NCBI GenBank assembly: GCA_964402925.1
Contig: CAYOED010000006.1
Span: 1,953-65,952, forward strand
Length of the DNA: 64,000 bases
Source of the DNA: an uncultured Lachnospiraceae bacterium
GTDB taxonomy: Bacteria > Bacillota > Clostridia > Lachnospirales > Lachnospiraceae
Direction of reading: 5' to 3'
The notes beneath the pieces were generated by a model. The model ran no database searches. It saw only the letters and a program-made list of their open reading frames with translations, and had not been told where the DNA came from. Of this stretch, positions 1,791 through 64,000 are shown piece after piece (within the stretch, counting starts at the first letter, position 1; every line of letters starts with the position of its first letter). Both the position numbers and the translations under genes were made by a program.

Positions 1791-1804
1791 GGAGGAAAAA
1801 TGAA

Positions 1805-3037: not shown

Positions 3038-3085
3038 AGTATCATCCTTTATCTTTAAAAATTTATTAGTTTTACAGCTATTGAG

Positions 3086-3135: not shown

Positions 3136-3148
3136 AGGAGTTGACACT

Positions 3149-3424
3149 ATGGCAAATACCACCAATTTCAGCGTCCGCATGGACAGCGATATAAAAAAAC
3201 AGTGCGAAACACTTTACGGAGAATTGGGAATGAATCTTACTACCGCAATCAATGTGTTTCTGCGCCAGTCCCTCCGTGTCGGCGGCTTTCCCTTTGAAGT
3301 CAAACTGGAACAGCCCAACAAAGAAACAATTGCCGCCATGTTGGAAGCAGAGCGTATCGCACATGATCCTAACGTAAAGCGCTACTCTGATGTAGAAGAA
3401 GCGCTACGGGAGTTAAAACAATGA
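3149..3424 (+). CDS. type II antitoxin, RelB/DinJ family
   Basis: 91-aa ribbon-helix-helix type N-terminus (FSVRMDSDIKKQCETLYGELGMNLTTAINVFLRQ). It overlaps the toxin gene by 4 nt. Confidence 0.85.
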   Translation: MANTTNFSVRMDSDIKKQCETLYGELGMNLTTAINVFLRQSLRVGGFPFEVKLEQPNKETIAAMLEAERIAHDPNVKRYSDVEEALRELKQ

Positions 3425-3702
3425 ATCGCGATATTATTTGGACAACACAGTTTAAAAAGGACTATAAGCTGGCACTAAAACGTCATCTGAATATTGAACT
3501 GCTGGACGATATAATCCGGGCACTGTCGCGTGGAGAAACGCTGCCAGAAAAGTACAAAGATCATCCATTATCCGGCGATTGGATCGGACACAGGGAATGT
3601 CATATTCAGCCGGATTGGCTGCTGATCTACCGCGTTGAAAATGATATATTAGTTCTGACCTTAGCCCGCACTGGAACACACAGTGACTTATTCAGCAAAT
3701 GA
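3421..3702 (+). CDS. type II toxin, YafQ/RelE family mRNA interferase
   Basis: 93 aa with FKKDYKL...LSG.W.G.RECHI.PDWLLIY...GTHSDLF, characteristic of YafQ. Confidence 0.85.
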   Translation: MNRDIIWTTQFKKDYKLALKRHLNIELLDDIIRALSRGETLPEKYKDHPLSGDWIGHRECHIQPDWLLIYRVENDILVLTLARTGTHSDLFSK

Positions 3703-3776
3703 GATGCACTAATATGACGGTATTCTTATAGCAGCATCACATGTTTTGCGAATGATACGCAAAGGAGGAAAATAAA

Positions 3777-49394: not shown

Positions 49395-50945
49395 CTACTC
49401 CTCATCGAAGTTGATTTTCTTCTGTAGGACATCCTCAAACTCCTCTATCATTTCAGCAGAGGGCGCAGGTGTTACCAAGCTTACGATTATAATAGCCAAT
49501 ACGCTTACTGCAAATCCTACTGCCAATGAGTAAAGTCCCGTAAAGCTTCCCAAAGTCTGTCCCTGAACAAGGGGGATGTAATCCCATATGATTACAGTGA
49601 GGGCTCCTGATGCGATACCTGCAACTGCTCCAGAGAAGTTGGTGCGTTTCCAGTAAAGGGAAAGAAGCACTGTGGGACCAAAAGCAGCTCCAAGACCTGC
49701 CCACGCATTAGATACAAGTCCCATGATAGAACTGTTGGGATCAAGAGCAATCAGATATGCAAGAACCGCAATGACAAGTACGGTAATACGGCTGATTCTG
49801 AACACTGTCTTTTCAGATGCATCTTTCTTGATAATTCCTTTGAATATATCCTCCGCCACGCTGGATGCACTGACAAGAAGCTGTGAATCCGCCGTGGACA
49901 TGATCGCGGCCAGAATACCGCACAGGAAAATTCCCGCGATAATCGGAAGTCTTACATCTTCCGTAAATAGTTTGATGATCATGTTGATAAATACCTTTTC
50001 TTCTTCTCCGCCGGTAAGAACGGTAGGATAAAGGTAAGCACGTCCTACCACACCGATCACCCAGGCAAGCACCAAAGAAAGGAATACCCAGACGATAGCA
50101 ATCCCTTTGGATTTATTTAACTCTTTTTCATTCTTAACTGCCATAAAGCGTACCAGAATATGAGGCATACCGCAATAGCCCAGTCCCCATGCAAGCCCTG
50201 ATATAATATCTACTGCACGGTAGGTTTCACCGCCATTGCTGAATAAGCTTAAGAAAGCCTGCGAACCGCCGGCTACGCCGCTCATTTCTATATTAGAAAG
50301 GACACTGCCAGCACCAATAATGCCAAGTGCCACAAGCGGAACTGCCAAAAGTGCTACAAGCATGAGCGTTCCCTGAATAAAATCGGTAGTACACACTGCC
50401 ATGAATCCGCCCAGGAACGTATAGACCAATATGACGATTGCTCCAATGGTCAGGGCAATCTTATAATCCACACCAAATACCGAATTGAACAATTTGCCGC
50501 CTGCTGCCAGCGCTGACGCTGTATATACCAGGAAAAATATTACGATTGTTATCGATGAAATAAAAAGCAGAATTCTCTTTTTATCATGAAATCTGTTTTC
50601 AAAGTAGGTCGGAAGGGTCAGCGCGTTATTTGCGCGGATCGTATATCTGCGAAGACGTCCCGCAATAAAAAGCCAGTTGAACACCGTTCCTATAAACAGT
50701 CCGATTGCAATCCATGCCTGTCCTGTTCCTAACGCATAAATAGAACCCGGAAGTCCCATCAGAAGCCATCCGCTCATATCCGAAGCCTGTGCAGATAAAG
50801 CTGCCACCCATCCACCAAGCTTTCTGCCACCGAGGAAATAATCCTCCGTACTGCTATTTTTCTTTGCATACATTGCCCCTACTCCAACCATGAGCAGGAG
50901 ATAAAGGGCAAATGCAACAATAATCCATCCTATTGAATCACTCAT
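49395..50945 (-). CDS. putP: sodium:proline symporter
   Basis: Start ATG at 50945 (MSDSIGWIIVAF) after GGAGGA. SSF-family sequence (YFLGGRKLGGWVAALSAQASDMSGWLLMGLPG). Confidence 0.9.
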   Translation of the reverse strand: MSDSIGWIIVAFALYLLLMVGVGAMYAKKNSSTEDYFLGGRKLGGWVAALSAQASDMSGWLLMGLPGSIYALGTGQAWIAIGLFIGTVFNWLFIAGRLRRYTIRANNALTLPTYFENRFHDKKRILLFISSITIVIFFLVYTASALAAGGKLFNSVFGVDYKIALTIGAIVILVYTFLGGFMAVCTTDFIQGTLMLVALLAVPLVALGIIGAGSVLSNIEMSGVAGGSQAFLSLFSNGGETYRAVDIISGLAWGLGYCGMPHILVRFMAVKNEKELNKSKGIAIVWVFLSLVLAWVIGVVGRAYLYPTVLTGGEEEKVFINMIIKLFTEDVRLPIIAGIFLCGILAAIMSTADSQLLVSASSVAEDIFKGIIKKDASEKTVFRISRITVLVIAVLAYLIALDPNSSIMGLVSNAWAGLGAAFGPTVLLSLYWKRTNFSGAVAGIASGALTVIIWDYIPLVQGQTLGSFTGLYSLAVGFAVSVLAIIIVSLVTPAPSAEMIEEFEDVLQKKINFDEE

Positions 50946-51116
50946 TTTTCTCCTCCGTTCCAATGCGCATTTCCATTCTCTTTGCTCTGCTGCTTAGCGC
51001 ATTTCTTATATACTATATATGAGCAGCCCTTATCAGTCAACCCAAAATTTGCCACGACACTGTATAGCCAAAAACAAATGCATCATACCAAGATACATCT
51101 TCCTATAAAATCAGGA

Positions 51117-51138
51117 AAGGGTGTAGATTCACACCCTT
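51117..51138. terminator. hairpin at the 3' end of the GGDEF gene
   Basis: Stem AAGGGTGT 51117-51124 / ACACCCTT 51131-51138. T6 on the plus side and a weaker T-rich tract on the minus side. Confidence 0.45.
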
Positions 51139-51145
51139 CCCTTTT

Positions 51146-54100
51146 TTAATCTGAATATTTCACATCTCCCTTTGTGGAGTGCTTAATCATATAAAGCACC
51201 TCGTCCGCTTTCGAGATTGTTTCTGCAATCTCATCATCACTCGTAATCCCTCTCATGGCTGCTATTCCAATGGAACAGGACAATTCTTTTTCCTCGGGAA
51301 TGACCACCTCTTTTTCTTCCATCTCTGCAATGATATCCGCAAATCCCTTTCTTTCTCTAATTGTATTAAGGATACTCCTTCCAATCGCCAATGCCCTTTC
51401 CTTATCCACAAATTTTAGGCTGATTAAGAATTCATCGCCGCCATATCTGGCTGCAAATCCGCTATTCCCTGATACCTGGCGCAGAATTTCCGCCACCTCT
51501 TTTAAGATCCGGTCCCCTGCCGCATGCCCAAAGGTGTCATTGTAATATTTAAAATTATCCAGATCTATATAGAGGAACGTAATATCCTGTGTTACGCGCC
51601 TTTCTACCCATCCTTTGATTGTCTGGTAAAAACCCTCCCTGTTGTACAGAGCCGTCAGATAATCCGTAATTGCTGCTCTTTCCAGACTGCTGTTAATACA
51701 TCTGATTTGTTCTTCATTTTCCAGTTTTCCCACTGAATTCTGGAACTGCAAAAGTACCAGATTAAAAAATTCCATATCACTTTCATCCAGCATAAACTTC
51801 GTTCGAGGCGCATTCCAGTTATCCTTCATCATAATATACATAATAAAAACACTGTTTAATTTTTCGTCAGTATAATAAGGAAGGCATACCATGGAGCAGA
51901 TCTGCGTGATTCCAAATAACGAAATAATGCGATTGTACTCCATGTGATTCTTTTTTAATTTGGAGGTGACAAAACCGGAGCGATGAACAGAAAAATATCT
52001 GGTGATTTTCTCAATATCCGCCGCGCCCAAAGCCACCTGTTTTGTATCAAAACAGATATCCGGCTGTCCATCTTTATACCGGATATAAATCATGGAATCA
52101 ATACTGAAACTCAGCATAAATGAATTAAGTGCGTTTTGAACCAGATCAGTAAAGTTCTTTCCTGAAATATCAATCATTTTCTGCCAGGCTAAAACAAATT
52201 TCATCTGTTTTTTCAATGCCGCATAATCTTTAATAATTCCGGCCTGCTTTGTTGCCATCTGTATTTTCTGCAGCGTAATACCTGAAAGTTCCACCGCCTT
52301 TTTGTGATTCTGTTCATACTTCGTTCCCCGGCGCGCCGCTTCCAACATGCACCGCTTTTCGGAAACGCCGCACTGTTTTACATACCGGAGTCCTCTTTCA
52401 ATCACCGCCTCTGCTTCCTCGTATCTTCCAACCTTTTTTAACATTTCCGCAAGAGTAATCTCATATTGCACCATACTGAAAAATTGATATCCCGTGCTTC
52501 TTTCCACATAGATTCTTGCACTCTCCATATAAGCAAGCGCTTCTTCATATCTGCCCTTATCGCTGTCCATAAGTGCGCTGACATAATAATATAGAAAAAG
52601 ATCATCATCACATGACGTATATGACGAGTCAAGCTTTCTGTTTTGAATCTTTTCCTCTATTGGACGGCTTAAAATATGCCCTAAAAACTGAAGTGCATTA
52701 TCCAGATAAATCCGTGTGTCATACTTTCTTCCAAGCCGGTAAGAACAAAGCGCAAGAAGACCAAATATCTTTGAGATATTGCAGACTCGCAGATCATTCA
52801 AATGAAGTATATTAATAATTTTCAGACAACTTAACAGATAATTATATGCCGTCTCATTCTCACCTGCAAGCATACAGTTAATCGCCATGTTATACAGCGT
52901 TTCTCCTATATAATCCACTTTGTTCAGCTGAAAATAAATGGCAATTGCCTTATTATAATAACCGTTCGCCTCCTCATACTGCTCAGCGGCACAGCAATTG
53001 TAGCCCAGCCCATTATAAATATCCGCAAGCTTAAACGGATCCTTATCCCCCACTATCTCCATGGATTTATAGTAATAATGGTTGGTTACATGAAACAAAC
53101 CAAACAATGACGAAAGCATAATATTTTTTCGGTACGCAATAAGCAGAAGATTTTCGTTGCCATGCTTCCGTGCAATCTCTATTCCTTTTTTAAAATGGAC
53201 AAGAACCGATTCGTCCCTTTTACTTTCACCAATAAGCCTGACATCATTATCATATGCAAAAACGTATGTGTATGCCAGATGGTTTTCGTACCCATATCGC
53301 TTCGCCTGTTCAAAAAATTCCGGCGAAACATCAATATCTGTAGAACAAAAGAAAATATTATGCCAACCTGACATCCTGACCATCACTTCCAGAAGACTTG
53401 CCAGAAACTGATGATATCCGCTCAAATTCTTCCCTGCTACTTCCCTGCAGACGTCCGCACATTCCTTTGCCGTATTAAGATTGCCGCTGTACATCTGTAT
53501 CTGTCCAAACAAATAGTAATACCAGAATCTCTTTTCCACAGACTTATCTTTACTCGAAAGGAGATGGATATTATCACATAAGAGCATCGCTCTTGGCATA
53601 TCGGAATAGAGTGAAAGCAGAGCATAAAGCATATAGAATTTAAAGACACTATCCTCATCGACAGAAAGTCTTTCTACTTCAATTTTATGGTAAACAAAAG
53701 CCAGATAATATTGCGCCTGTTCATAGTCCAACAGATAATACATATTGTGCAGCTGTATCAGATACTCTTCAATGGCGCTGTTCTCAAAACAAAAACAACT
53801 GTTTTCCTCTTCGACTTTAATTTCATCTCCTCCGCCGTTTACAACGTAATTATGATCCTCCAGCTTTTCCATCCAGCTCTCCCATGACTCCGCCACATGC
53901 GGCAGCTGGGAATGAAGTTCATTAAAGGCGCCATACACAAAAATGTTTCCATCCTCTTGCTCCATCAATTTCTGCAAAAGCAATACTGTGGATTTGGATG
54001 CAATATTCAAATTATCCAGCAGAAAAAGCATAGGATATTTTCTGGACAATCTTGTAAGTACATCAGCCATTGATTTCAGCATCTGCTGTTTTTCATAATC

Positions 54101-54472
54101 AATCTCATCCGGCAGGATTTCTTCCCTTCTACTATACACCAAGTCGCTTACTATATTTTCAAAAATGGATTTCTGCAATGAATAAACAGAAAATTGTGCA
54201 ATGAATTCCTCCGGAGTTTTATCGTTCTCGTAGGTTTCGTAAAGAAATCTGATCACGTCTATGAACGGTTCAAAGGCGCCTATCATCTTAGATGCGTCAA
54301 AGCGTTTAAAAAACACACAGAAATCAGGATGCTTTACTTTTGCTGTTTCTGCATCCTCATTTGTAATCGCAAACGTATTATAATGCTTTACAATCGTAAA
54401 TCGATTCCCCCGTGTTTCTCCTGTAAGGTTTCCCATCATCGGCGCAATATATGTTTCGTAATAAATCCCCAT
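51146..54472 (-). CDS. large TPR-containing diguanylate cyclase (GGDEF)
   Basis: Start ATG at 54472, 9 nt after AGGAGG. C-terminal GGDEF domain (DYLTALYNREGF...RYGGDEFLISL). The long helical-repeat middle region looks TPR-like. Confidence 0.85.
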   Translation of the reverse strand: MGIYYETYIAPMMGNLTGETRGNRFTIVKHYNTFAITNEDAETAKVKHPDFCVFFKRFDASKMIGAFEPFIDVIRFLYETYENDKTPEEFIAQFSVYSLQKSIFENIVSDLVYSRREEILPDEIDYEKQQMLKSMADVLTRLSRKYPMLFLLDNLNIASKSTVLLLQKLMEQEDGNIFVYGAFNELHSQLPHVAESWESWMEKLEDHNYVVNGGGDEIKVEEENSCFCFENSAIEEYLIQLHNMYYLLDYEQAQYYLAFVYHKIEVERLSVDEDSVFKFYMLYALLSLYSDMPRAMLLCDNIHLLSSKDKSVEKRFWYYYLFGQIQMYSGNLNTAKECADVCREVAGKNLSGYHQFLASLLEVMVRMSGWHNIFFCSTDIDVSPEFFEQAKRYGYENHLAYTYVFAYDNDVRLIGESKRDESVLVHFKKGIEIARKHGNENLLLIAYRKNIMLSSLFGLFHVTNHYYYKSMEIVGDKDPFKLADIYNGLGYNCCAAEQYEEANGYYNKAIAIYFQLNKVDYIGETLYNMAINCMLAGENETAYNYLLSCLKIINILHLNDLRVCNISKIFGLLALCSYRLGRKYDTRIYLDNALQFLGHILSRPIEEKIQNRKLDSSYTSCDDDLFLYYYVSALMDSDKGRYEEALAYMESARIYVERSTGYQFFSMVQYEITLAEMLKKVGRYEEAEAVIERGLRYVKQCGVSEKRCMLEAARRGTKYEQNHKKAVELSGITLQKIQMATKQAGIIKDYAALKKQMKFVLAWQKMIDISGKNFTDLVQNALNSFMLSFSIDSMIYIRYKDGQPDICFDTKQVALGAADIEKITRYFSVHRSGFVTSKLKKNHMEYNRIISLFGITQICSMVCLPYYTDEKLNSVFIMYIMMKDNWNAPRTKFMLDESDMEFFNLVLLQFQNSVGKLENEEQIRCINSSLERAAITDYLTALYNREGFYQTIKGWVERRVTQDITFLYIDLDNFKYYNDTFGHAAGDRILKEVAEILRQVSGNSGFAARYGGDEFLISLKFVDKERALAIGRSILNTIRERKGFADIIAEMEEKEVVIPEEKELSCSIGIAAMRGITSDDEIAETISKADEVLYMIKHSTKGDVKYSD

Positions 54473-54680
54473 GAAGCAGTACCTCCTGTCAGACAAACTT
54501 CCCCCTCTGCCAGCCTGCCATCCATAAATATCATATCACGAAAATGCACGGAATACTATAACAAATTGCTTTTATCTTTAGCCCAAAAGCATTTTTGCTC
54601 ATTTGAGCAAATTGACACTTTTATGGTTTTCAACGTATAATAATTATCATCAATCAACTTAAGAAAAAGGAGAATTTCAC

Positions 54681-55922
54681 ATGCCCAAAGTCACACCTTT
54701 TCAAAGCATCAGACCCATACCCGAACTGGCTTCCCGGATAGCTGCTCTTCCCTATGACGTCTATAATCGCAGGGAAGCATTATCGGAGATACAAAAGGAA
54801 CCTCTTTCCTTTTTAAAAATAGACAGAGCTGAAACCCAGTTTCCTGACGACGTGGACACCTATGATTCCAAAGTATACACAAAAGCAAGAGAACTTCTGG
54901 ACGCCATGATTTCAGAAGGTTCCTTTATAACAGAAGATGCGCCCTGCTACTATCTGTATGAACTGACCATGGATGACCGTTCCCAGACCGGCATTGTTGC
55001 CTGTTCGGATCTGGACGATTATCAGAACCAGTTGATCAAAAAACATGAGAATACCAGAGAGGACAAAGAACTTGACCGTATCCGGCATGTGGATGTGACA
55101 GATGCACATACCGGTCCCATTTTTCTGGTATACCGCTCTGTACAGGAAATCAACGATATTGTTACCCTTTGCAAAAAGGGATCTGCCCTCTACGATTTTA
55201 CATCCTCTGACAACATCACCCACCGGGTATGGTGCATTTCAGACCAAGCGATAATTACAAAACTACAGGAAATCTTTGCACAGATCCCCTGTACCTACAT
55301 AGCTGACGGTCATCACCGCTGTGCTTCCGCAGTAAAAGTGGGACTGAACCGTCGGAAGGCACACCCCGATTATACCGGTAAGGAAGAGTTCAACCGCTTT
55401 CTTTCCGTGCTTTTCCCAGACGATCAGCTTTATATCATGCCCTACAACCGGGTGGTAAAGGACTTAAACGGACGATCAAAGGAAGACTTTTTATCCGCTG
55501 TGGAAGCTGCCGGATTTTCAGTGGAATATAAAGGAGACGAACAAGTTTCTCCTGACAAAAAGGGGTGTTTCGGCATGTATCTTTCCGACGGCTGGTACCT
55601 GCTTACCGCCAGAGAGTCACTTTTATCTTCTGACCCGGTAAAGGGACTGGATGTTTCCATTCTGCAGGATAACCTCCTTGGTCCCCTGCTGAACATAAAT
55701 GATCCCAGGACAGATAAACGGATTGATTTTGTCGGCGGTATCCGCGGACTGAATGAACTGGAACGCCGGGTTTCCTCCGATATGACCGTAGCCTTTTCCA
55801 TGTATGCCACATCCATATCTGAGTTGCTTTCCGTAGCAGATACCGGTCTTCTCATGCCGCCCAAGTCAACCTGGTTCGAGCCAAAACTGCGGAGCGGATT
55901 ATTCATACATCGCTTATCCTAA
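54681..55922 (+). CDS. DUF1015 family protein
   Basis: 413 aa, with PFQSIRP...ALPYDVY...ADGHHR, typical of DUF1015. Confidence 0.8.
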   Translation: MPKVTPFQSIRPIPELASRIAALPYDVYNRREALSEIQKEPLSFLKIDRAETQFPDDVDTYDSKVYTKARELLDAMISEGSFITEDAPCYYLYELTMDDRSQTGIVACSDLDDYQNQLIKKHENTREDKELDRIRHVDVTDAHTGPIFLVYRSVQEINDIVTLCKKGSALYDFTSSDNITHRVWCISDQAIITKLQEIFAQIPCTYIADGHHRCASAVKVGLNRRKAHPDYTGKEEFNRFLSVLFPDDQLYIMPYNRVVKDLNGRSKEDFLSAVEAAGFSVEYKGDEQVSPDKKGCFGMYLSDGWYLLTARESLLSSDPVKGLDVSILQDNLLGPLLNINDPRTDKRIDFVGGIRGLNELERRVSSDMTVAFSMYATSISELLSVADTGLLMPPKSTWFEPKLRSGLFIHRLS

Positions 55923-55941
55923 AGTCAGATTTATTGTAGTA

Positions 55942-55983
55942 AAAGGCTGCTCACAACCTTCCTTTGTGTTGGGAGCAGCCTTT
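55942..55983. terminator. bidirectional terminator between DUF1015 and proB
   Basis: 11-bp stem AAAGGCTGCTC 55942-55952 / GAGCAGCCTTT 55973-55983, with A/T runs on both flanks. Confidence 0.7.
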
Positions 55984-56014
55984 ATCGAACTACAAGAATG
56001 GCTTACAAAATGAG

Positions 56015-56827
56015 TCATCCATTGCTTGATGCTTTAAATAAGGTACCTACTTCTTTTCCTTCTAAAATCCTGCTGATATTCACCACATCATCTCCATTGG
56101 CAATTACCATATCGACCCCTATCGCACCGGCAATTTCTGCCGCTGCAATCTTCGTCGCCATACCGCCCGTTCCAAAGGTCGTATCTGCTCCCTTTGCCAT
56201 GGCATACAATCTGTCATCTATTCTTTCTACACAATCAATAAACTCAGCTTTCTCATTATTTCTCGGATCATCTGTGTAAAGCCCGTCTATATCAGATAAA
56301 AGAATCAGCAGATCTGCTTGTACCAACTCTGCCACAGTTGCAGACAAAGTGTCATTGTCCCCAAAATTCTCATCCTGAATCTGGTCTGTGGAAACTGTAT
56401 CATTTTCATTTACAATCGGAATGACGCCCATGTTCAGCAGTTCCAAAAAAGTATTTTCTGCATTTTGTCTGCTGATTTCATTGGTCATAGTCCTTTTGGT
56501 AATCAAAATCTGGGCAATCGTCTGATTATACTCCGCAAATAATTTTTGATAAATCATCATCAGCCTTGCCTGTCCCACTGCCGCACATGCCTGCTTTTGA
56601 GAAAGCCGGCTGGGCTTTACCTTGATACCAAGCGCCTTCCTGCCCGCGCCGATAGCGCCTGATGAGACAAGCACAATTTCTTTATTCTGATTTTTAATAT
56701 CCGTCAGAACCCTTGCCAGTTTTTCCATTTTAAGCAGATTTAAATGTCCTGTATCTACGTGCGTAATCGTGGAAGTACCTATTTTTACCACAATACGCTT
56801 TTTATCTTTCAAAAACTCCCTGTTCAT
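56015..56827 (-). CDS. proB: glutamate 5-kinase (short form, no PUA domain)
   Basis: Start ATG at 56827 (MNREFLKDKKRIVVKIGTSTIT). Also VSSGAIGAG and IPIVNENDTV. The track GTG at 56848 is less likely. Confidence 0.92.
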   Translation of the reverse strand: MNREFLKDKKRIVVKIGTSTITHVDTGHLNLLKMEKLARVLTDIKNQNKEIVLVSSGAIGAGRKALGIKVKPSRLSQKQACAAVGQARLMMIYQKLFAEYNQTIAQILITKRTMTNEISRQNAENTFLELLNMGVIPIVNENDTVSTDQIQDENFGDNDTLSATVAELVQADLLILLSDIDGLYTDDPRNNEKAEFIDCVERIDDRLYAMAKGADTTFGTGGMATKIAAAEIAGAIGVDMVIANGDDVVNISRILEGKEVGTLFKASSNG

Positions 56828-56919
56828 TCTGTTATGTTCCTTCCTCACATCGTTACCATTTGACCTTCGCCTTCATTCTTCCCATCATACCATGATTGGT
56901 TGAAATTTCAATGGGTAAT

Positions 56920-58350
56920 TCATATAAATGGCAGATTCATATGTTCAAGAAACCGTTCCTTAAATGAATCCTCATCCGCCAGTTCCACATGTACAAAACG
57001 ACAGCTTTCCTCTTCCGAACTCTGCAATGCCTTTTCCGAAAGCAATGCCATTGCCGCCCCGGTTCCCGCCAAATTGCCTGCCTGCACCATTTTTTCTCTG
57101 GGAACGTCTGGGAATAGACCAATTGCAATACCGCTTTCAATGCTGATATAACATCCAAACGCTCCTGCCAGGTAAATTTTGTCAAGTTCATCCGCCTTTA
57201 TACCTGCTCTTTCAAGCAGGATCTCCATGCCTGATCTGATTGCACTGACTGACAACTGCAGCGCACGCACATCATCAGCCAGAATATAAACCGGATGCGA
57301 CTTGTCTGTAAGCAGAAACTTTCTCGTATCATCCATGGTTTCAATTCTCTTACATATCCTCTCCGGCACCCCCGCTTCCTTCGCTTCCTTTGCGCTCCGC
57401 ATATATCCGGTTTGGTCAAGAACACCAATACGATAAAGCTGCGCCAGACCATCCACCAGACCGGAGCCGCAGATACCCAGCGGATTTCCCCCTCCAATCA
57501 CCCTGCACACAATATCCTGCATGGGAAATCTTCCGCTTATGGAAACCATATCGACAGCGCCTGCTGCCGCCCGCATCCCCTGACTCACAGCACCGCCCTC
57601 CAATGCCGGACCCGCCGCTGCGGAACAGGCATATCTTTTCCCCCCGCACAAGAGAAGGATTTCTCCGTTAGTTCCAATATCCACCGCCAGTACTTTATTC
57701 CCCTGCGTCTTCCAGTTTACATAACTATTCACCGCCAACGCATCTGCTCCCACATAACCGCCTATAGGAGGCAAAATAATTACATCAGTATCCTTTAGGA
57801 ATTGAAATCCAAGCTGCTCCCCTTTCCTATAAAAGGTTTCTTTATAATCAGGCATAAAGGGTGCCCGGAACAAGCCCTCCGGTCTAATCCCCACCAGAAT
57901 TTCACACATGGCTGTGTTCCCTACGATGGTGACTTTCTGCACTTTCTTTCTGACAATATTCTCGGTATACTCCTGCTTAGAAAGTCGTCCCATCATACCG
58001 GCTGCCATCTCATCCAGCTTCCCGACCACCAGTTCCTGCATCTTTTCAAGTTTGTCAAGGCTCTCCATCGCCGCCTGTATCCTGCTGATGACATCTGCCC
58101 CAAAAGCTGCCTGCGGATTCGCACCGGTCTCCGCATCCAAAAGACTCCCTTCCTTTAAGTTCCATAGCATTCCCGCCAACGTGGTCGTTCCCACATCAAA
58201 AGAAATGCCCAGCCCTTCGCCTGGGTCTGTTGCAAATCCCTCTGGGAACTGCACCCTGATCTGCTTATTTGTATTCAGTTTCTGGAAAATTCCGCATCCG
58301 TTACAACTGATTCGCTTACATCCCGGACATTTATTTACTCTGTTTTCCAT
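56920..58350 (-). CDS. ASKHA-fold ATPase, DUF4445 (RACo C-terminal-like) protein
   Basis: FDVGTTTLAGMLW, AVDIGTNGEI and GSGL motifs of an actin-like ATPase. N-terminal CPGCKRISCNGC cluster. Confidence 0.75.
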   Translation of the reverse strand: MENRVNKCPGCKRISCNGCGIFQKLNTNKQIRVQFPEGFATDPGEGLGISFDVGTTTLAGMLWNLKEGSLLDAETGANPQAAFGADVISRIQAAMESLDKLEKMQELVVGKLDEMAAGMMGRLSKQEYTENIVRKKVQKVTIVGNTAMCEILVGIRPEGLFRAPFMPDYKETFYRKGEQLGFQFLKDTDVIILPPIGGYVGADALAVNSYVNWKTQGNKVLAVDIGTNGEILLLCGGKRYACSAAAGPALEGGAVSQGMRAAAGAVDMVSISGRFPMQDIVCRVIGGGNPLGICGSGLVDGLAQLYRIGVLDQTGYMRSAKEAKEAGVPERICKRIETMDDTRKFLLTDKSHPVYILADDVRALQLSVSAIRSGMEILLERAGIKADELDKIYLAGAFGCYISIESGIAIGLFPDVPREKMVQAGNLAGTGAAMALLSEKALQSSEEESCRFVHVELADEDSFKERFLEHMNLPFI

Positions 58351-58392
58351 AAATAGTCTCCTGTTCAGCTTGGGGTTATCTTAGTATCTAGG

Positions 58393-58689
58393 GGCGTGTG
58401 GGTGGAGCGGGGATGGGGGAGGCGGTTGCCGGAACGGCATTGTATCTATCACAAACCTATGTACAGCGGTAAGAGAGGCTAGGTATCCCTATGACAGGCG
58501 CATCATGGAGGACGCAAACGGCGTATTGGTCCATCCATGGACCAAGTTACGCCTTTGGCGGACTTCCTGTCCGCCAATTGCTGGATTTTCAAAGGGATAC
58601 CAAGTCTCTCTAACCGCTTCCCATAAGGTCCGTGATAGATACAATGCCGTTCCGGCAACCGCCTCCCCCATCCCCGCTCCACCCACACG
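58393..58689. repeat. 297-bp long-hairpin element, family A copy 2 (inverted orientation)
   Basis: Perfect 59-bp arms 58393-58451 / 58631-58689, continuing imperfectly inward. The core at 58513-58628 is the reverse complement of the 12969-13084 core. Confidence 0.9.
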
Positions 58690-58895
58690 CTTCTCAGACG
58701 TAAAGCTATGCCTAACCTAAATTTTTTCTTGTCTGTCCTTACTCGGAGGCATCCTAGAGCTATTACGCTATTTATAAAAGAATACCACAAAATCCTTGCT
58801 TTTTTAACCAGATTTCTCTATTATCTAAAACAGAAGAATGAATGAGTGCATTAGGGCACTAGAAAATGGAGCGTCATTAGCATAGGCGCGTGAGA

Positions 58896-59115
58896 AGATA
58901 CAGTCAGGTCAAGGCAGGCGAGGGTGCACGGAACAGTAGACTGCTTCTAAGCTGCCCCTGCAATGCGTCTGTCTCAGACCTTATGGGAAGCGGTTAGAAG
59001 GACTTGGCATCCCATTAAATATCCAGCAATCGGCGGACAGGACGTCCGCCGAAGGCGTAACTTGGTCCATGGATGAACCAATACGCCGTTTGCCTGCCTT
59101 GACCTGAATGTATCC
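58896..59115. repeat. family A copy 3 (truncated) bounded by its own 16-23 bp inverted repeat
   Basis: TCAGGTCAAGGCAGGC 58904-58919 / GCCTGCCTTGACCTGA 59092-59107. The core at 58979-59093 matches copies 1 and 2. Confidence 0.85.
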
Positions 59116-59150
59116 CCCAAATACCATCATAATGAGCGAAAGGAAATTTT

Positions 59151-60011
59151 ATGTGGATAGCAGATAATTGGAAAGATTATGAAGTGATAGATACCTCCTG
59201 CGGTGAAAAGCTGGAGCGTTGGGGAAAGTATATCCTCCTTCGTCCCGACCCGCAGGTCATATGGAATACCAGTAAAGAAGCAAAAGAATGGAATCGTCTT
59301 AACGGTCATTATCACCGCAGTGCCAAGGGCGGCGGCGAATGGGAATTTTTTCAGCTTCCCAATGAATGGAGCATCAACTACCGTGAGCTCACCTTCCATT
59401 TGAAGCCTTTCAGTTTTAAGCATACAGGTCTTTTCCCCGAGCAGGCCGTGAACTGGGATTGGTTTTCACAGATTATCAAAAATGCCAATCGTCCTGTTAA
59501 GGTTCTGAATTTATTTGCCTATACAGGAGGGGCTACACTGGCTGCTGCGAAAGCCGGTGCAAGCGTCACTCATGTGGATGCATCCAAGGGAATGGTCACC
59601 TGGGCAAAGGAAAACGCTGCCGCTTCCGGTCTTTCTGATGCCCCCATACGTTGGCTGGTGGATGACTGCGTCAAATTCGTAGAGCGGGAAATCCGCCGCG
59701 GCAATACCTATGACGGCATTATCATGGATCCTCCCTCTTACGGAAGAGGACCCAAAGGGGAAATCTGGAAAATCGAGGACAGTGTCTATCCTTTTATCGA
59801 ACTGACCACCAAGCTGCTTAGTAAAGATTCCCTGTTCTTCCTCATTAATTCCTACACAACAGGCTTGCAGCCTGCCGTCCTTACCTACATGCTAAATACC
59901 ACAGTCGTCAAAAAGTTGGGCGGGCAGGTGGCTTCCTCGGAAATTGGTCTTCCCGTAAGCAGCAACGGTCTGATTCTTCCCTGCGGTGCTTCCGGGCGAT
60001 GGACTCACTGA
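59151..60011 (+). CDS. class I SAM-dependent methyltransferase (RlmI/RlmK-like catalytic domain)
   Basis: VLNLFAYTGGATLAAAKAGA (motif I) and IIMDPPSYGRG (motif IV). G+C is normal for this window. Confidence 0.75.
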   Translation: MWIADNWKDYEVIDTSCGEKLERWGKYILLRPDPQVIWNTSKEAKEWNRLNGHYHRSAKGGGEWEFFQLPNEWSINYRELTFHLKPFSFKHTGLFPEQAVNWDWFSQIIKNANRPVKVLNLFAYTGGATLAAAKAGASVTHVDASKGMVTWAKENAAASGLSDAPIRWLVDDCVKFVEREIRRGNTYDGIIMDPPSYGRGPKGEIWKIEDSVYPFIELTTKLLSKDSLFFLINSYTTGLQPAVLTYMLNTTVVKKLGGQVASSEIGLPVSSNGLILPCGASGRWTH

Positions 60012-60158
60012 CAGCACAATACCTATGAATATTACTAGATAAATTGAAAAGAAACCGTTTAATAAAAACTTGCGATGCGAAAAAAAGGTAAATACTTTTT
60101 TATTTGTGATTGTCTTTTTCTCTCTTTCTCTTTATAATAAAGTACAGAGGGTCTTATC

Positions 60159-63038
60159 ATGGAACATTTTACTGTTTTAAACTACCAAGGAAGTAAAAAC
60201 AGCCTAAGTAGCTTTATAAAAAAAAATATAGAGCCATATATACAAGATGGCAAAGCATTTTTTGACATTTTTTCAGGTTCTGCTGCTGTCAGTAATATTT
60301 TTAGAGATAATTATCAAGTTTTTGCGAATGATGCTGAACTCTATGCCTCTATAATAGCTGATGCTGTGCTAAATCAAGCAAATATAGATTCATCTTCTGC
60401 CTTGCTTCAATCTCTGGAAACAGAATATGCTGCTACTATTAAGGTGCAGGCAAAACCAATTTTAAATTTTATAAGCCATGAACAGCAAGCATTAAATGAT
60501 GAAAATTATGAGAAGTTAATCTCTCTTTATAAATCTTATCCAACCGTTTGGAACAATCAATATTCAGAAATAACCAGATGCACATTAAATGTTAATAATC
60601 TCAAAAAACTTAATGATTTTTATTTATTTACAACATATTATGCAACTAATTACTATGGCATTATTCAAGCACTTGATATTGATTGTCTCATCAAAATAAT
60701 TAATTTAAGCTTTGCACGTTATAAGAATACTTTGCTTGCTTGTTTATTTTACGCAATGAAAGAAACAGTTTTTTCAAAAGATGGCCATATGGCTCAACCA
60801 CTTAGTCTTGAAAAAAATCAAAACCGTCTCTTTTCTCAACGTAAAAAAAATATATATGAATTATTTATCAAAAAATTTAAAGAATACCTATCCGTTCCAC
60901 TTTCTAAATTTTCTGGAAAGAACGCTGTATTTAATTCTAATTTTGAAGAATTGTTAGACGAAACATTTTTTTCTAATATAGGATTAGTTTATGCAGACCC
61001 ACCATATACAGACATGCAATACTCTAGATACTATCATCTGCTAAATGTAGCCGCCAAATATGAGTATCCTGCATTAACCATGACCAAAAACGGATATACC
61101 AAGGGCTTATATACCGAAGGGCGTTATCAATCAAAATTAAGCCAACGTGGTTCAGCAAAACAATCATTGGAAAACCTAATTAGCTTTTGTTCACGCACAC
61201 GTACCAACCTCGCTATCAGCTACGCATATCCTCAAAATAGAGAACAGCAAGCCACAGATAGATATACAATCTCCATTGATGAATTGATTGAACTTGCTCA
61301 AAAACATTATACCAATGCTCGAGTCAATATAGCAGTTCAAACCTATAACCATGCCAACCATAGAAACAGCGAACAAAAAAAAGTTCTGGAATATTTAATC
61401 CTATGTGGTGATAAAAATTTGAATCAAGTTAATATAGATTCTCTAAAAAGAACTTTAGGCAACTTATCTCCAAGCAAAAATAACCCTATGTACAACTCTC
61501 ACATGTATTGGTCGCAAAAAGCTTTTAATATCTGTGATGCCTTAATTGATTCATTATCCAATAAAGGGAATATTGTTTTTGACCCTTTTCTCGGCTCTGG
61601 AGTAACAATACTAGAAGCCATTAAAACAGATTTATCTCGCTGCGCTATTGGTTGTGATATTAATGATATGCCGTTATTTATTTCAAAATTATTATTATCA
61701 GTTAATGCCACACCAACTATAAAGAAAGAGCTTGAACATTTTATACTTGAACTCAAAACTTTGGATCATTATTACGAAACCACTTGCCCCATATGCAAGA
61801 AAACAGGTACCATATCAAAAGTAATTTTCGACAAACCAGAAAGAACCGGTTCTGAAATTAAAATAAAAGCAATCAATTATACCTGTGAGTGTACAAGAAA
61901 AGGCATTAAATCCGCAGACGGAAATGACTATTTAAAAATGAATACTATACGGGCATTGAAAAACATCACCAACACTGATTTATTACACAACTCAAAAATT
62001 GCAGTAACTGAGAATGATGATATCAAAAACATATTTACCGGGCGCAACTTATCTGTACTAGATGAAATACTGACCATCATTAGCAAATATGAGAAAAGTT
62101 ATCAGAATATTCTAAAATATATCCTGATGTCGGTATTACATCTTTGCAAGATAACTGACAAACACTCAAATTCACAGTGGCCATTGTGGATACCGAAAAC
62201 CGATTGCGTTGAAAAAAACATTTTAGACGTTTATACTAAAAAAATTAAAAAATTTTACAATGTTATCCCTTTTATGAAAGAAAACTACAGTAATTCCGAA
62301 ATAGTTGAATCGTATGTTGATCTTTCTCCTGGTAAATGCTTACTAATGCAAAAGGGGAGCCAATTAATAACCGAGCAAGACATACCAAATAATGGCGTTG
62401 ATTTAATCATTACAGATCCCCCGTATTTGGAACAAGTCTTATATTCCGAATACATGCAGTTATATAAACCTTTTTTAAATCTGGATTACAACTTAGACGA
62501 CGAAATAATTGTATCTTCGGCACCTTCACGCAATAAGGACAAATGCAGCTATTTTGAATTGTTGGAACAAGTTTTTCATATGTGTTCAAACAAGTTAAAG
62601 CTTAACCATTTTTTATGTTTATATTTTCATGATAGCAGTTTAAATGTATGGGATAAATTAATTACTATTTTAGAAAGAAATTGCTTTAGATTTATTACTC
62701 AGATACACGTTGATAAGACAGTCACTTTAAAAAATATTATCAGTCCGAAAAAATCATTAAACGGTGACTCCATACTTATTTTTTCCAAAAGCGACTCTCC
62801 CATTGAACATAATGCCGAAGAAGATGTCTCTGAAATCGAACATAATATTATTAGGCAAGCAAAGTTTATGGTGAAGTCAAACGGCTCTTTATCCACTCCC
62901 GAATTATACGATAACGGGCTTATGGAAATTTTAATTCAAAATGGTTGGTTATCGAAACTCTCAAATAAATATTCTTCATTAGTTGATATTTTTGAAAAAC
63001 ATTTAACTTGGGACACCTCTACAGCTAAATGGAAATGA
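60159..63038 (+). CDS. fused double DNA methyltransferase (Dam-like D12 module plus permuted N4/N6 module)
   Basis: Module 1 has YQGSK..FFDIFSGSAAV (aa 35-44) and VYADPPY (aa 280-283). Module 2 has FDPFLGSGVT (aa 474-) and IITDPPY (aa 753-756), with a CxxC...CxC segment between them. Confidence 0.8.
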   Translation: MEHFTVLNYQGSKNSLSSFIKKNIEPYIQDGKAFFDIFSGSAAVSNIFRDNYQVFANDAELYASIIADAVLNQANIDSSSALLQSLETEYAATIKVQAKPILNFISHEQQALNDENYEKLISLYKSYPTVWNNQYSEITRCTLNVNNLKKLNDFYLFTTYYATNYYGIIQALDIDCLIKIINLSFARYKNTLLACLFYAMKETVFSKDGHMAQPLSLEKNQNRLFSQRKKNIYELFIKKFKEYLSVPLSKFSGKNAVFNSNFEELLDETFFSNIGLVYADPPYTDMQYSRYYHLLNVAAKYEYPALTMTKNGYTKGLYTEGRYQSKLSQRGSAKQSLENLISFCSRTRTNLAISYAYPQNREQQATDRYTISIDELIELAQKHYTNARVNIAVQTYNHANHRNSEQKKVLEYLILCGDKNLNQVNIDSLKRTLGNLSPSKNNPMYNSHMYWSQKAFNICDALIDSLSNKGNIVFDPFLGSGVTILEAIKTDLSRCAIGCDINDMPLFISKLLLSVNATPTIKKELEHFILELKTLDHYYETTCPICKKTGTISKVIFDKPERTGSEIKIKAINYTCECTRKGIKSADGNDYLKMNTIRALKNITNTDLLHNSKIAVTENDDIKNIFTGRNLSVLDEILTIISKYEKSYQNILKYILMSVLHLCKITDKHSNSQWPLWIPKTDCVEKNILDVYTKKIKKFYNVIPFMKENYSNSEIVESYVDLSPGKCLLMQKGSQLITEQDIPNNGVDLIITDPPYLEQVLYSEYMQLYKPFLNLDYNLDDEIIVSSAPSRNKDKCSYFELLEQVFHMCSNKLKLNHFLCLYFHDSSLNVWDKLITILERNCFRFITQIHVDKTVTLKNIISPKKSLNGDSILIFSKSDSPIEHNAEEDVSEIEHNIIRQAKFMVKSNGSLSTPELYDNGLMEILIQNGWLSKLSNKYSSLVDIFEKHLTWDTSTAKWK

Positions 63039-63049
63039 CGCCCTATAAC

Positions 63050-63078
63050 AAAAATGCGAGGTTCATCCTCGCATTTTT
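63050..63078. terminator. bidirectional terminator between methyltransferase and nuclease genes
   Basis: Stem GCGAGG 63056-63061 / CCTCGC 63067-63072, loop TTCAT. AAAAAT on the left and ATTTTT on the right. Confidence 0.75.
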
Positions 63079-63080
63079 GC

Positions 63081-63962
63081 TTATATTTCCTGAATTCCAT
63101 TATAATACTCCCCAGGAAAATGTTTGTTAAGACGTTGCATCAAATTTTTCCCATCAACGATTTCAACTTCTAAATCAACTGCAACTTTTCTACCATCTTT
63201 AGTATATCCGGAAGTTGTTACACAAACCGCATGATCCAACCCTCTTCTCATCCTTTCAGCATATAACCGCTGTATAGGATCCGATCCAACATTTGATGCC
63301 CAGCGTTTGCATTGAAATATATAGTGTAATATTCTACCTTGCTGACGCTTAGACGCAACAATATCAACTCCTAAATCACCTGCTCCCCCCATCTTGACAA
63401 CATTTTCATAGCCTTCTTCCTTCAATAATTTTTGAACCAAGATTTCAAATTCTGTGCCACTTAATGTTGATATGTCAACTGCGTTTTCATTTGGTTTACT
63501 AATATCCTTTCGTTCGACATAATACGGTCCATCTTTCTCACAGTAATTTGCTATCAGTTTTTCAATATCTCTTTGATGACTTTCATCTTCTAAAATCTGT
63601 GTAATAGTTTTTGGATTACCATCACACAATGCATTCACGAGTTCAAAATAGACATCTTCTAATATAAATTTCCCTTTACTATTTAATAACTGCCTGACAA
63701 AAACAGGCATCAAATCTAATAATTTGAAATATAAATCCGTTGTATCCTCAATATCTAAATACAATTGATTATTATCAATCTGTATACAACCGGCATCTAC
63801 CTTAAAATATCGTTCCAGCAATGCCTTTATGTGCAAGATATCTTCCTCACTTGCCCTGTATAAATATTTTGATTTCAAATCATTGCAAATTAACGTTACT
63901 GCACTTGTTAATGTCACATACTCTTTTGTATGAGTCAAGTATGAATAAACTTTTTTCACCAT
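63081..63962 (-). CDS. restriction endonuclease-like protein with C-terminal Mrr-type (PD-(D/E)xK) catalytic domain
   Basis: C-terminal GTEFEILVQKLLKEEGYENV..GGAGDLGVDIVA...IFQCKRW...VCVTTSGYT matches the Mrr_cat pattern. The ATG at 63962 overlaps the upstream gene's TGA by 1 nt. Confidence 0.75.
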   Translation of the reverse strand: MVKKVYSYLTHTKEYVTLTSAVTLICNDLKSKYLYRASEEDILHIKALLERYFKVDAGCIQIDNNQLYLDIEDTTDLYFKLLDLMPVFVRQLLNSKGKFILEDVYFELVNALCDGNPKTITQILEDESHQRDIEKLIANYCEKDGPYYVERKDISKPNENAVDISTLSGTEFEILVQKLLKEEGYENVVKMGGAGDLGVDIVASKRQQGRILHYIFQCKRWASNVGSDPIQRLYAERMRRGLDHAVCVTTSGYTKDGRKVAVDLEVEIVDGKNLMQRLNKHFPGEYYNGIQEI

Positions 63963-64000
63963 CAAAAACTCGTAGTTTTCATTCCCAATATACCAATATG
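63962..64000 (-). CDS. 3' end of an unidentified gene translationally coupled to the nuclease gene
   Basis: A frame open from the window edge reads ...HIGILGMKTTSF then TGA (63962-63964), which shares one base with the nuclease ATG. Confidence 0.4.
   Translation of the reverse strand, partial: HIGILGMKTTSF

What the first reader, a model, noticed from the sequence alone, without database searches (positions are those of the whole stretch)
60159..63038. Single polypeptide with two differently built amino-methyltransferase modules
Module 1 (aa 1 to about 430) is Dam-like (D12 class). It has LNYQGSK, FFDIFSGSAAV, ANDAEL and VYADPPY at aa 280-283.

Module 2 (aa about 440-959) contains the two halves of the N4/N6 (ParB-associated type) methylase fold in swapped order. 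The H..W..K...FDPFLGSGVT half (aa about 458-500) comes first. Then follow about 250 aa including a CPICKK...CEC zinc-ribbon-like segment. Last comes the DLIITDPPY half (aa 753-756), with the downstream hydrophobic core.

Fusions of two methyltransferase domains are known from Type IIS systems such as M.FokI, where each domain modifies one strand of an asymmetric site. Here the two modules belong to different families, and one appears circularly permuted.
Basis: partly seen in the sequence, partly recalled or inferred. Interest (0 to 1): 0.65.

Follow-up and report, generated by a model that had tools for sequence, protein, structure and literature searches.

The report
Fused double adenine methylase, restriction system
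This 959-residue protein is two complete DNA adenine methyltransferases joined in one chain, the protective half of a three-gene restriction-modification island built like the commercial enzyme BtgZI; that is a known kind of system, and the apparent domain permutation is a normal trait of a large family.

Summary
Each half folds on its own as a complete seven-stranded methyltransferase (pLDDT 88.7 and 87.5).

Module 1 is Dam-like. Module 2 is "permuted" only relative to Pfam's beta-class model. Its real order is motif I, then a zinc-ribbon insert after strand 2, then DPPY. That is the same alpha-type order as module 1. It is shared by about 2000 cluster representatives, including stand-alone enzymes and DUF1156/PglXI-type methylases.

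The fusion is not an artefact. More than 120 clusters at 49-98% identity are about 960 aa long. A sister clade carries the same two modules as two adjacent genes, broken exactly at the module boundary.

The convergent neighbour, cut by the window end, is a 794-aa protein. Its N-terminus is a paralogue of module 2 (25% identity over 449 aa, motif IV DFPY). Its C-terminus is an Mrr-type nuclease (D...QxK). An HTH controller gene lies upstream. This matches the published architecture of BtgZI.

Verdict: a new member of a known kind, a two-strand Type IIS/IIC modification enzyme. Interest is low to moderate.

The parts
60110..60138 (+). Promoter-like site (TTGTCT-17-TATAAT) about 20 nt upstream of the methylase start. 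The low-GC island begins near 60012.
   Evidence: This is a consensus scan only, and 18 such sites were found against 15.6 expected, so it is weak. GC falls from about 0.50 to about 0.31 at 60000.
60159..63038 (+). M gene: a 959-aa fused double N6-adenine DNA methyltransferase.
   Evidence: Intact ORF. Pfam D12 and N6_N4_Mtase hits. At least 120 full-length homologue clusters.
60159..61412 (+). Module 1 (aa 1-418): Dam-like (D12, alpha-class) m6A methyltransferase. Motif X LNYQGSK, motif I DIFSGSA, helical insert aa 61-250, DPPY aa 280-283, strands 5-7 aa 350-416.
   Evidence: PF02086 at E 1.8e-15. AlphaFold pLDDT 88.7, pTM 0.89. The best Foldseek PDB matches are E. coli Dam and DpnM over about 420 columns, probability 1.0. 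The split-form M1 genes end at the residues aligned to aa 417-419.
61413..63038 (+). Linker plus module 2 (aa 419-959): alpha-order m6A methyltransferase related in sequence to N6_N4 methylases. Motif X-I HMYWSQK...FDPFLGSG (aa 448-481), insert after strand 2 with a Cys4-type ribbon (aa 543-578), DPPY aa 753-756, C-terminal helical bundle aa 890-948.
   Evidence: PADLOC MTase_II PDLC03319 covers aa 448-922 against 2-460 of 503 model positions, and PglXI scores E 1e-23. AlphaFold pLDDT 87.5, pTM 0.87 with the strand order given. Motifs invariant in 51 sequences.
63049..63079 (.). 13-bp stem-loop between the convergent M and R genes, probably a bidirectional terminator.
   Evidence: Terminator scan and sequence.
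63081..64000 (-). 3' part (aa 490-794) of the 794-aa R gene, which runs off the window end. The full gene is L001:12923-15307. Full protein: an N-terminal module-2 paralogue (motif I YDPFMGAGSF, Cys ribbon, motif IV TDFPY), a linker, and a C-terminal Mrr-type nuclease.
   Evidence: The window is identical to L001 over 13842 nt, and the frame stays open to the window end. Pfam Mrr_cat E 5e-24 plus N6_N4_Mtase E 1.7e-11. PDLC03319 covers aa 38-558. BLASTP against module 2 gives 25% identity over 449 aa, E 2e-24.
63135..63470 (-). Mrr_cat nuclease domain of R (aa 666-777), with GDLGVD...QCKRW. This is the PD-(D/E)XK variant with Q in place of E.
   Evidence: Pfam. The motifs are conserved in 14 of the 15 R homologues compared; the 15th, the frame-broken L018 copy, could not be scored. 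Translation.

Best explanation
The ORF encodes the modification enzyme of a three-gene Type II restriction-modification island: M to the right, then R and C on the opposite strand. The island is of the Type IIS/IIC kind and is built like BtgZI.

The protein consists of two independent, complete N6-adenine methyltransferases joined by a short linker.
- Module 1 is a Dam-like (D12) enzyme.
- Module 2 belongs to a large family related in sequence to N6_N4 methylases. Its order is motif I, then a zinc-ribbon-bearing recognition insert after strand 2, then DPPY.

Inferred, not shown: each module methylates the adenine of one strand of a short asymmetric site. Together they protect host DNA from the neighbouring 794-aa endonuclease.

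That endonuclease reads the same site through an N-terminal paralogue of module 2. SAM-binding residues are kept there and motif IV is DFPY. It cuts nearby with a C-terminal Mrr-type (D...QxK) nuclease domain. A 158-aa tandem-HTH protein encoded just upstream of R probably times R expression.

The fusion is simply a read-through of two adjacent genes. Related loci keep them separate.
For: Shown:
- Both modules score above the Pfam cut-offs. Both fold alone into complete seven-stranded methyltransferase domains.
- Module 1 matches the Dam and DpnM structures.
- Motifs I and IV of both modules are invariant in 51 homologues.
- The M-R pair is linked in all 14 related species loci and in a C. butyricum plasmid, and the C gene is present in most of them. 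In most loci M and R are convergent. The NJ trees for M2 and R are congruent.
- R is a module-2 paralogue plus Mrr_cat. Its motif I, its strand-2 acidic residue, its TD(F/P)PY motif and its D...QCK nuclease motif are all conserved.
- Split two-gene forms break at the module boundary.
- The island has low GC and a terminator hairpin between the convergent genes.

From the literature:
[quoted passage not shown] Type IIS systems such as AlwI use two MTases joined in one chain, one per strand (PMC4081073).
Against: - No methylation or cleavage data exist for this family, so the recognition site and the strand assignment are unknown.
- The Mrr_cat domain is best known from methyl-dependent Type IV enzymes, and PADLOC also matched mREase_IV models.
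- GCGATG is not avoided in the window (19 observed, 18.3 expected), so nothing supports BtgZI's own specificity here.
- If R also methylates one strand, one M module might seem redundant. Eco57I-type systems show the same redundancy.
Confidence: 0.8

Rival explanations
1. Only one module of M is catalytically active. The other serves as a DNA-binding or targeting domain, so the protein is functionally a single methyltransferase.
For: No direct activity data exist. In the window copy, module 1 motif I reads FSGSA rather than FxGxG. Inactive MTase-like readers are plausible, given that R itself carries a DFPY variant.
Against: Motif I, motif IV (DPPY) and flanking residues are invariant or near-invariant in both modules across 49-98% identity. 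Both modules exist as separate genes in a sister clade, annotated independently as methylases. Both fold as complete domains.
Confidence: 0.1
2. The neighbour is a methyl-dependent Type IV (Mrr-like) endonuclease unrelated in function to M, and M is an orphan or regulatory methylase that merely sits beside it in a defence island.
For: Mrr_cat is the catalytic domain of Mrr. PADLOC mREase_IV models match it at E 2e-10. Some loci lie among other defence genes, for example a DUF262-like gene in L014.
Against: M and R are linked, and usually also C, in every locus examined across families from Lachnospiraceae to Enterococcus and Halonatronum, and their trees are congruent. R carries a paralogue of M's own module 2, including its recognition insert. 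A methyl-dependent nuclease that reads the site its partner methylates would be suicidal. The published BtgZI architecture is identical, and BtgZI cuts unmodified DNA (PMC4081073).
Confidence: 0.07
3. The central part of the protein (DPPY at aa 280 through FDPFLGSG at aa 474-481) is one beta-class N6_N4 domain. The N-terminal motif I and the C-terminal DPPY would then be leftovers of, or partners in, a domain-swapped arrangement.
For: Pfam aligns PF01555 positions 88-213 to aa 363-503, across the module boundary. In homologue P0265 it aligns positions 1-216 to aa 299-622 as a single stretch.
Against: After its DPPY, module 1 has its own strands 5-7 (aa 350-416). Module 2 has its own strands 1-7. 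Both are modelled at pTM 0.87-0.89 when folded alone. Natural split forms cut between aa 417 and about 425, which would bisect such a domain. The Pfam stretch is explained by the IV...I order that any head-to-tail pair of alpha-order modules creates.
Confidence: 0.03

Closest known systems
BtgZI restriction-modification system (Type IIC/IIS, GCGATG 10/14), as described in Pingoud, Wilson and Wende 2014 (PMC4081073)
   Same: The partner endonuclease here has the published BtgZI layout. It has an N-terminal alpha-order amino-methyltransferase module and a C-terminal PD-(D/E)XK variant with Q in place of E (GDxGVD...QCK). A separate modification enzyme accompanies it.
   Different: The recognition site is unknown. 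Motif IV of R is DFPY in 13 of 15 homologues. The hosts are anaerobic gut Firmicutes, not a thermophilic Bacillus.
Fused two-domain Type IIS methyltransferases (M.AlwI as described in PMC4081073; M.FokI, named in the finding and recalled from general knowledge)
   Same: Two complete amino-MTase domains sit in one polypeptide next to a restriction enzyme. The presumed logic is one domain per strand of an asymmetric site.
   Different: Here the two modules come from different sequence families (D12 and the module-2 family), not two D12 copies. From my own knowledge, not checked here, M.FokI is two D12 domains. Fused and split versions coexist within one family.
DUF1156 / PglXI (BrxXI, BREX type 3) methyltransferases
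   Same: These share the linear order and the insert position with module 2: the H-x-(Y/W)-W motif, DPFxGSG, strand 2, a Cys-rich TRD insert, then (D)PP(Y/F/H). PADLOC PglXI scores E 1e-23. Published description: "TRD insert ... after core strand-2".
   Different: Module 2 has no Pfam DUF1156 hit and no BREX genes nearby. Its insert is shorter (about 225 aa against about 400 aa). Identity is only 22-35%.
E. coli Dam / DpnM (D12 class)
   Same: Module 1 has the same motifs, the same order and the same fold.
   Different: Module 1 has an all-helical insert of about 190 aa and is 418 aa long, against about 280 aa for Dam. Nothing suggests that it targets GATC.
Eco57I-type Type IIG systems
   Same: A restriction enzyme that itself carries a methyltransferase module is accompanied by a separate methylase able to protect both strands (PMC4081073).
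   Different: In Eco57I-type enzymes the nuclease is N-terminal and the MTase is gamma-class. Here the MTase-like module is N-terminal and alpha-order, and the nuclease is a C-terminal Mrr type.

Membership tests
D12-class (alpha) N6-adenine DNA methyltransferases (Dam, DpnM): module 1 | Match to PF02086 above the curated cut-off | tested here: met
   57.8 bits against a cut-off of 22, aa 9-304.
D12-class (alpha) N6-adenine DNA methyltransferases (Dam, DpnM): module 1 | Order motif I, then TRD, then motif IV (DPPY), with a complete Rossmann-like fold resembling Dam | tested here: met
   AlphaFold strand order. Foldseek top hits are Dam (4rtn and others) and DpnM (2dpm), probability 1.0, TM (target) 0.44-0.53.
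D12-class (alpha) N6-adenine DNA methyltransferases (Dam, DpnM): module 1 | N6-adenine methylation activity | not testable with these tools
   Needs methylome or enzyme assays.
Beta-class N6_N4 methyltransferases (PF01555; M.PvuII, M.RsrI, CcrM): module 2 | Sequence match to PF01555 | tested here: met
   64.8 bits against a cut-off of 26.7, but the matched profile positions are 88-213 only (motif X-I side). PDB sequence hits to MboIIA and DpnA fall at motif I only.
Beta-class N6_N4 methyltransferases (PF01555; M.PvuII, M.RsrI, CcrM): module 2 | Linear order motif IV, then TRD, then motif I (definition in PMC7544214) | tested here: not met
   Motif I is at aa 474-481 and DPPY at aa 753-756. The model shows strands 1-2, insert, strands 3-7. 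Module 2 is therefore not a beta-class member.
DUF1156 / PglXI-type alpha-order methyltransferases: module 2 | Motif X-I at the N-terminus, TRD insert after core strand 2, DPPY downstream | tested here: met
   There are colinear tblastn matches to 700-840-aa HKWWARR proteins.
DUF1156 / PglXI-type alpha-order methyltransferases: module 2 | DUF1156 N-terminal domain, or BREX / BREX-related gene neighbourhood | tested here: not met
   No PF06634 hit in the window protein. The NCBIfam DUF1156_antiphage score is 16.7 against a cut-off of 1000. The neighbours are R and C only.
Fused two-MTase modification enzymes of Type IIS systems (M.AlwI / M.FokI kind) | Two complete MTase domains in one chain | tested here: met
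Fused two-MTase modification enzymes of Type IIS systems (M.AlwI / M.FokI kind) | Each domain methylates one strand of an asymmetric site cut by the partner enzyme | not testable with these tools
   Inferred from context only.
BtgZI-like Type IIC endonucleases: neighbour R | N-terminal alpha-class MTase module | tested here: met
   Motif I is at about aa 60 and TDFPY at aa 343-347. The module is colinear with module 2 and with PDLC03319.
BtgZI-like Type IIC endonucleases: neighbour R | C-terminal PD-(D/E)XK variant with Q replacing E | tested here: met
   Mrr_cat E 5e-24. GDLGVD...QCKRW is conserved in 14 of the 15 homologues compared; the frame-broken L018 copy could not be scored.
BtgZI-like Type IIC endonucleases: neighbour R | Sequence homology to R.BtgZI, and cleavage at a fixed offset from an asymmetric site | not testable with these tools
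   The BtgZI sequence is not in the accessible collections. No Parageobacillus hit appeared among the 240 listed homologues.

The most novel reading that the evidence does not exclude
The restriction enzyme finds its site with a methyltransferase paralogue that has been turned into a pure reader. The DFPY module would bind SAM and flip the target adenine, as module 2 of M does, but would no longer methylate. Cleavage by the Mrr domain would be licensed only when the flipped base is unmethylated.

Under this reading, R and M specificity are matched because both descend from one ancestral module with its recognition insert. That would be a general route by which Type IIS enzymes arise from their own methylases.
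Probability: 0.2. Interest if true: 0.55.

Novelty: new member of a known kind. Interest (0 to 1): 0.28.

Why it matters
For the finding as given, little changes. It is a normal two-strand modification enzyme, and the "permutation" reflects how the Pfam model is laid out rather than an event in this protein.

Three points have practical value:
- The family is very common in gut and lactic Firmicutes: Lachnospiraceae, Megamonas, Enterococcus, Streptococcus suis, Lactobacillus, Clostridium. It is probably a barrier to transformation there, yet databases annotate it only generically.
- The module-2 family has no close solved structure and no dedicated Pfam model. Automatic domain calls therefore place a spurious beta-class domain across the junction of two modules.
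- The paralogy between R and module 2, and the natural fused and split pairs, offer a clean system for studying two things: how a restriction enzyme and its methylase keep the same specificity, and what fusion contributes.

Tried and rejected
- Frameshift or assembly artefact: rejected by conservation of the 960-aa form and by identity of the window to an independent contig.
- A central beta-class domain spanning the junction: rejected by the two stand-alone AlphaFold models and by the split forms.
- Foldseek of module 2 against the PDB gave only weak, generic class I methyltransferase hits. The best was TTHA0409 at E 6e-4, with TaqI, CamA and TrmM also listed. There is no informative structural relative for the insert.
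- PDB sequence searches of M and R gave only motif I matches.
- I tried to connect R to BtgZI by sequence. Three homologue searches and a plasmid tblastn listed no Parageobacillus protein. Literature searches for BtgZI or GCGATG found only the 2014 review.
- Site avoidance as a clue to specificity: GCGATG occurs 19 times against 18.3 expected, and no convincing asymmetric 5- or 6-mer is depleted. The window is too short for this test.
- Co-variation between the recognition inserts of module 2 and R within loci: same-locus identity is 22.4% and cross-locus identity 23.3%, so there is no signal.
- Bujnicki 2002 on methyltransferase permutations is not held in the paper library.
- A general methylome literature search gave nothing specific to this family.
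Full report
**Observation**

The ORF 60159..63038 (+) is intact and encodes 959 aa.

Pfam places MethyltransfD12 on aa 9-304 (57.8 bits, cut-off 22). It also reports N6_N4_Mtase (64.8 bits, cut-off 26.7) with its best stretch on aa 363-503, matching profile positions 88-213 of 221. Weak generic methyltransferase hits surround the second DPPY at aa 738-790.

The protein is not a frameshift artefact. A search of 5.8 billion proteins lists 120 clusters (296 pass E<=1e-5) at 49-98% identity. Nearly all are 958-992 aa, and they come from many independent contigs and from isolates. The isolates include Pseudobacteroides cellulosolvens, Caproicibacterium, Clostridium tyrobutyricum, C. sporogenes and Enterococcus dongliensis. 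The window from 50159 to 64000 is identical to an independently assembled contig, L001.

**Are both modules complete, and how are they built?**

I modelled each half separately, using 51-sequence alignments.

Module 1 (aa 1-435) gave pLDDT 88.7 and pTM 0.89. Its elements, in protein numbering, are:
- strand 1, aa 33-36 (motif I)
- strand 2, aa 54-57
- an all-helical insert, aa 61-250
- strand 3, aa 256-258
- strand 4, aa 274-279, followed by DPPY at aa 280-283
- strands 5-7, at aa 350-358, 389-398 and 407-416

Its best PDB matches are E. coli Dam and DpnM over about 420 alignment columns (probability 1.0).

Module 2 (aa 436-959) gave pLDDT 87.5 and pTM 0.87. Its elements, numbered within the module (residue 1 is aa 436), are:
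- strand 1, 37-40 (FDPF)
- strand 2, 60-64
- an insert from 68 to about 290, containing two long helices, a four-stranded ribbon at 105-149 that carries the Cys pairs, and further helices
- strand 3, 291-295
- strand 4, 312-317, followed by DPPY at 318-321
- strands 5-7, at 378-388, 408-415 and 436-442
- a helical C-terminal bundle

Both halves are therefore self-contained seven-stranded methyltransferases. Both have the order motif I, TRD, motif IV. That is the alpha-class order as defined in PMC7544214.

The catalytic motifs of both modules are invariant or nearly invariant across the 51 sequences. In the window copy, module 1 motif I reads FSGSA, where some homologues have FSGSG. Of the four ribbon cysteines, three are invariant. 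The fourth is present either as C-x-C or as C-x-x-C.

**The "permutation"**

Module 2 looks swapped only against PF01555, which models beta-class enzymes (order IV, TRD, I). The arrangement is a family trait, not an event in this protein.
- A PADLOC model of stand-alone Type II methylases (PDLC03319, 503 positions) aligns end to end with aa 448-922. The BREX type 3 methylase model PglXI matches at E 1e-23.
- An exhaustive HMMER scan of 1.84 billion representatives finds 1986 relatives at E<=1e-3, 654 at E<=1e-10 and 126 at E<=1e-30. Most of the best 150 are stand-alone proteins of 500-580 aa covering the whole module.
- More distant relatives from many phyla are 700-840 aa. They carry the HKWWARR signature (a weak Pfam DUF1156 hit), then DPFMGSG, then a Cys-rich insert of about 400 aa, then DPPF.

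The Pfam stretch that crosses the module boundary is explained by the IV...I order that any head-to-tail pair of alpha-order modules creates. This applies to aa 363-503 here and to aa 299-622 in homologue P0265. The separate models and the natural split forms exclude a real central beta-class domain.

**Context**

The gene sits at the start of a low-GC island. GC falls from about 0.50 to about 0.31 at 60000.

The convergent ORF that the window shows as 294 aa is truncated by the window end. On L001 it is 794 aa. It is not merely an Mrr nuclease.
- Residues 38-558 match the same PDLC03319 model as module 2.
- BLASTP against module 2 gives 25% identity over 449 colinear residues, E 2e-24. The alignment includes motif I (YDPFMGAGSF), the YETTC...C / CPxC ribbon, and motif IV.
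- Motif IV is TDFPYTDQVPYLE in 13 of 15 homologues and TDPPY in the other two.
- Motif I and the acidic residue after strand 2 ((E/D)(L/I)DNYT) are conserved in all 15 homologues. The nuclease motifs GDxGVD...QCKRW are conserved in 14; the frame-broken L018 copy could not be scored.
- Mrr_cat covers aa 666-777 at E 5e-24.

Upstream of R, overlapping its start, lies a 158-aa protein with two HTH-like segments. A 13-bp hairpin separates the convergent stops.

Linked M and R genes recur, in most loci convergent and usually with the C gene, in Pseudobacteroides, in all 14 related loci recovered from a species-level genome collection, and on a Clostridium butyricum megaplasmid. The genome loci include Lachnospiraceae, Christensenella, Acutalibacteraceae, Alkalibacterium, Erysipelotrichaceae, Ruminococcaceae, Halonatronum and Gastranaerophilales.

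NJ trees of module 2 and of R are broadly congruent. R homologues of about 795 aa are widespread. They occur in Megamonas, Enterococcus, Streptococcus suis, Ligilactobacillus, Lactobacillus, Parvimonas and Clostridium.

**Fused versus split**

In five species loci (L008, L009, L010, L015, L019) and in C. butyricum pCFSA3989, the two modules are separate genes that overlap, abut or lie a few nucleotides apart. In the C. butyricum record they are annotated "DNA adenine methylase" (430 aa) and "DNA methyltransferase" (541 aa).

The first gene ends at ...EYLI(I/L)C(K/N/R)..., which aligns with aa 412-419 of the window protein. The second begins within the segment that forms the linker in the fused form.

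The split forms cluster together in the trees. D12 plus module-2 fusions also occur at only 28-32% identity to this one (P0263, P0265, P0278). The module is also found fused to a canonical beta-class domain (P0266), to a C5 methylase (P0386) and to Mrr_cat (P0280). The module is therefore a common building block, and fusion to a second methylase is recurrent.

**Comparison with the literature**

Pingoud, Wilson and Wende (PMC4081073) state that BtgZI (GCGATG 10/14) differs from other Type IIC enzymes. [quoted passage not shown] R here has exactly the BtgZI layout, and M has the AlwI logic. I could not obtain the BtgZI sequence, so homology to it remains untested. Nothing indicates the same specificity either: GCGATG occurs 19 times against 18.3 expected.

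**Mechanism**

Shown:
- There are two complete, conserved m6A-type catalytic modules.
- The genes are tightly co-inherited with a nuclease that carries a paralogous module and SAM-binding residues.
- There is a controller-like HTH gene.

Inferred:
- Each M module methylates one strand of an asymmetric site.
- R binds the unmethylated site through its methyltransferase-like module and cuts at a distance with the Mrr-type domain.
- The HTH protein delays R expression when the island enters a new host.

Identity between R and module 2 is about the same in the insert (22%) as in the catalytic core (26-28%), and there is no within-locus excess. The duplication therefore predates the radiation of this family, and I saw no evidence of recent exchange. 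Whether R's DFPY pocket still transfers methyl groups is open.

**Verdict**

The two-module reading is correct. The "differently built, circularly permuted" reading is a misreading of the Pfam layout.

This is a new member of a known kind: a fused two-strand modification enzyme of a BtgZI-like Type IIS/IIC system. Interest is low to moderate (0.28). It comes mainly from three things: the paralogy between R and module 2, the natural fused and split pairs, and the lack of structures or dedicated models for a very common family.

Noticed in passing
window 63081-64000 (-); full gene L001:12923-15307: The ORF listed as 294 aa with a TTG start is an artefact of the window end. The real gene is 794 aa, and its N-terminal 560 aa are a methyltransferase-like paralogue of module 2 with motif IV DFPY.
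   Followed up: yes
L001:15304-15780 (-) and L001:15907-15969 (outside the window, about 66065-66127 in window numbering): The controller-like protein has two HTH-like segments in one 158-aa chain (aa 10-72 and 113-151). About 130-190 nt upstream of its start lies a tandem direct repeat of 31-32 nt (84% identical, ...GTGCCAAATAGTC...). This could be an operator for a single-chain tandem-HTH regulator, in place of the usual palindromic C-box. Comparable repeats were not evident in L004, L006 or L016.
   Followed up: partly
L004:13756-14727 (-) and L009:4223-5236 (-): Two of the related loci carry an extra protein of about 320-340 aa (36% identical to each other). It has an internal duplication of a PvuII-like nuclease motif (weak Pfam Endonuc-PvuII hit, E 7e-4). 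In one locus it lies upstream of C, in the other downstream of R. It could be an accessory or second nuclease. It is absent from the window's island.
   Followed up: partly
L018:3140-8581 (Halonatronum saccharophilum): In this genome R lies upstream of M on the same strand, and both R and module 1 are broken across reading frames. This is probably a decaying copy of the system, or sequencing errors.
   Followed up: no
window 1-60011: CCWGG is strongly under-represented outside the island (52 observed, 106 expected from a maximal-order Markov model, z -5.2). This hints at a CCWGG-specific restriction system elsewhere in this host, past or present.
   Followed up: no
window aa 363-503 of the M protein (nt 61245-61667); homologue P0265 aa 299-622: Pfam's beta-class N6_N4_Mtase model aligns across the junction of the two modules, because DPPY of module 1 is followed by motif I of module 2. 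Automatic annotation will therefore report a domain that does not exist as a folding unit.
   Followed up: yes
L014:8579-10909 (-); L086 (C. butyricum pCFSA3989) 1-5229: Some copies of the system sit among other mobile or defence genes. In L014 a 776-aa DUF262-like (GmrSD-type motif) gene lies between M and R. In C. butyricum the system lies beside phage-like genes (DNA polymerase, DUF2815, DUF2800, ImmA/IrrE).
   Followed up: no
window 60071-60076: A single GCGATG (the BtgZI site) lies in the 147-nt spacer just upstream of the M promoter-like site. It is probably chance, given 20 such sites in the window.
   Followed up: partly
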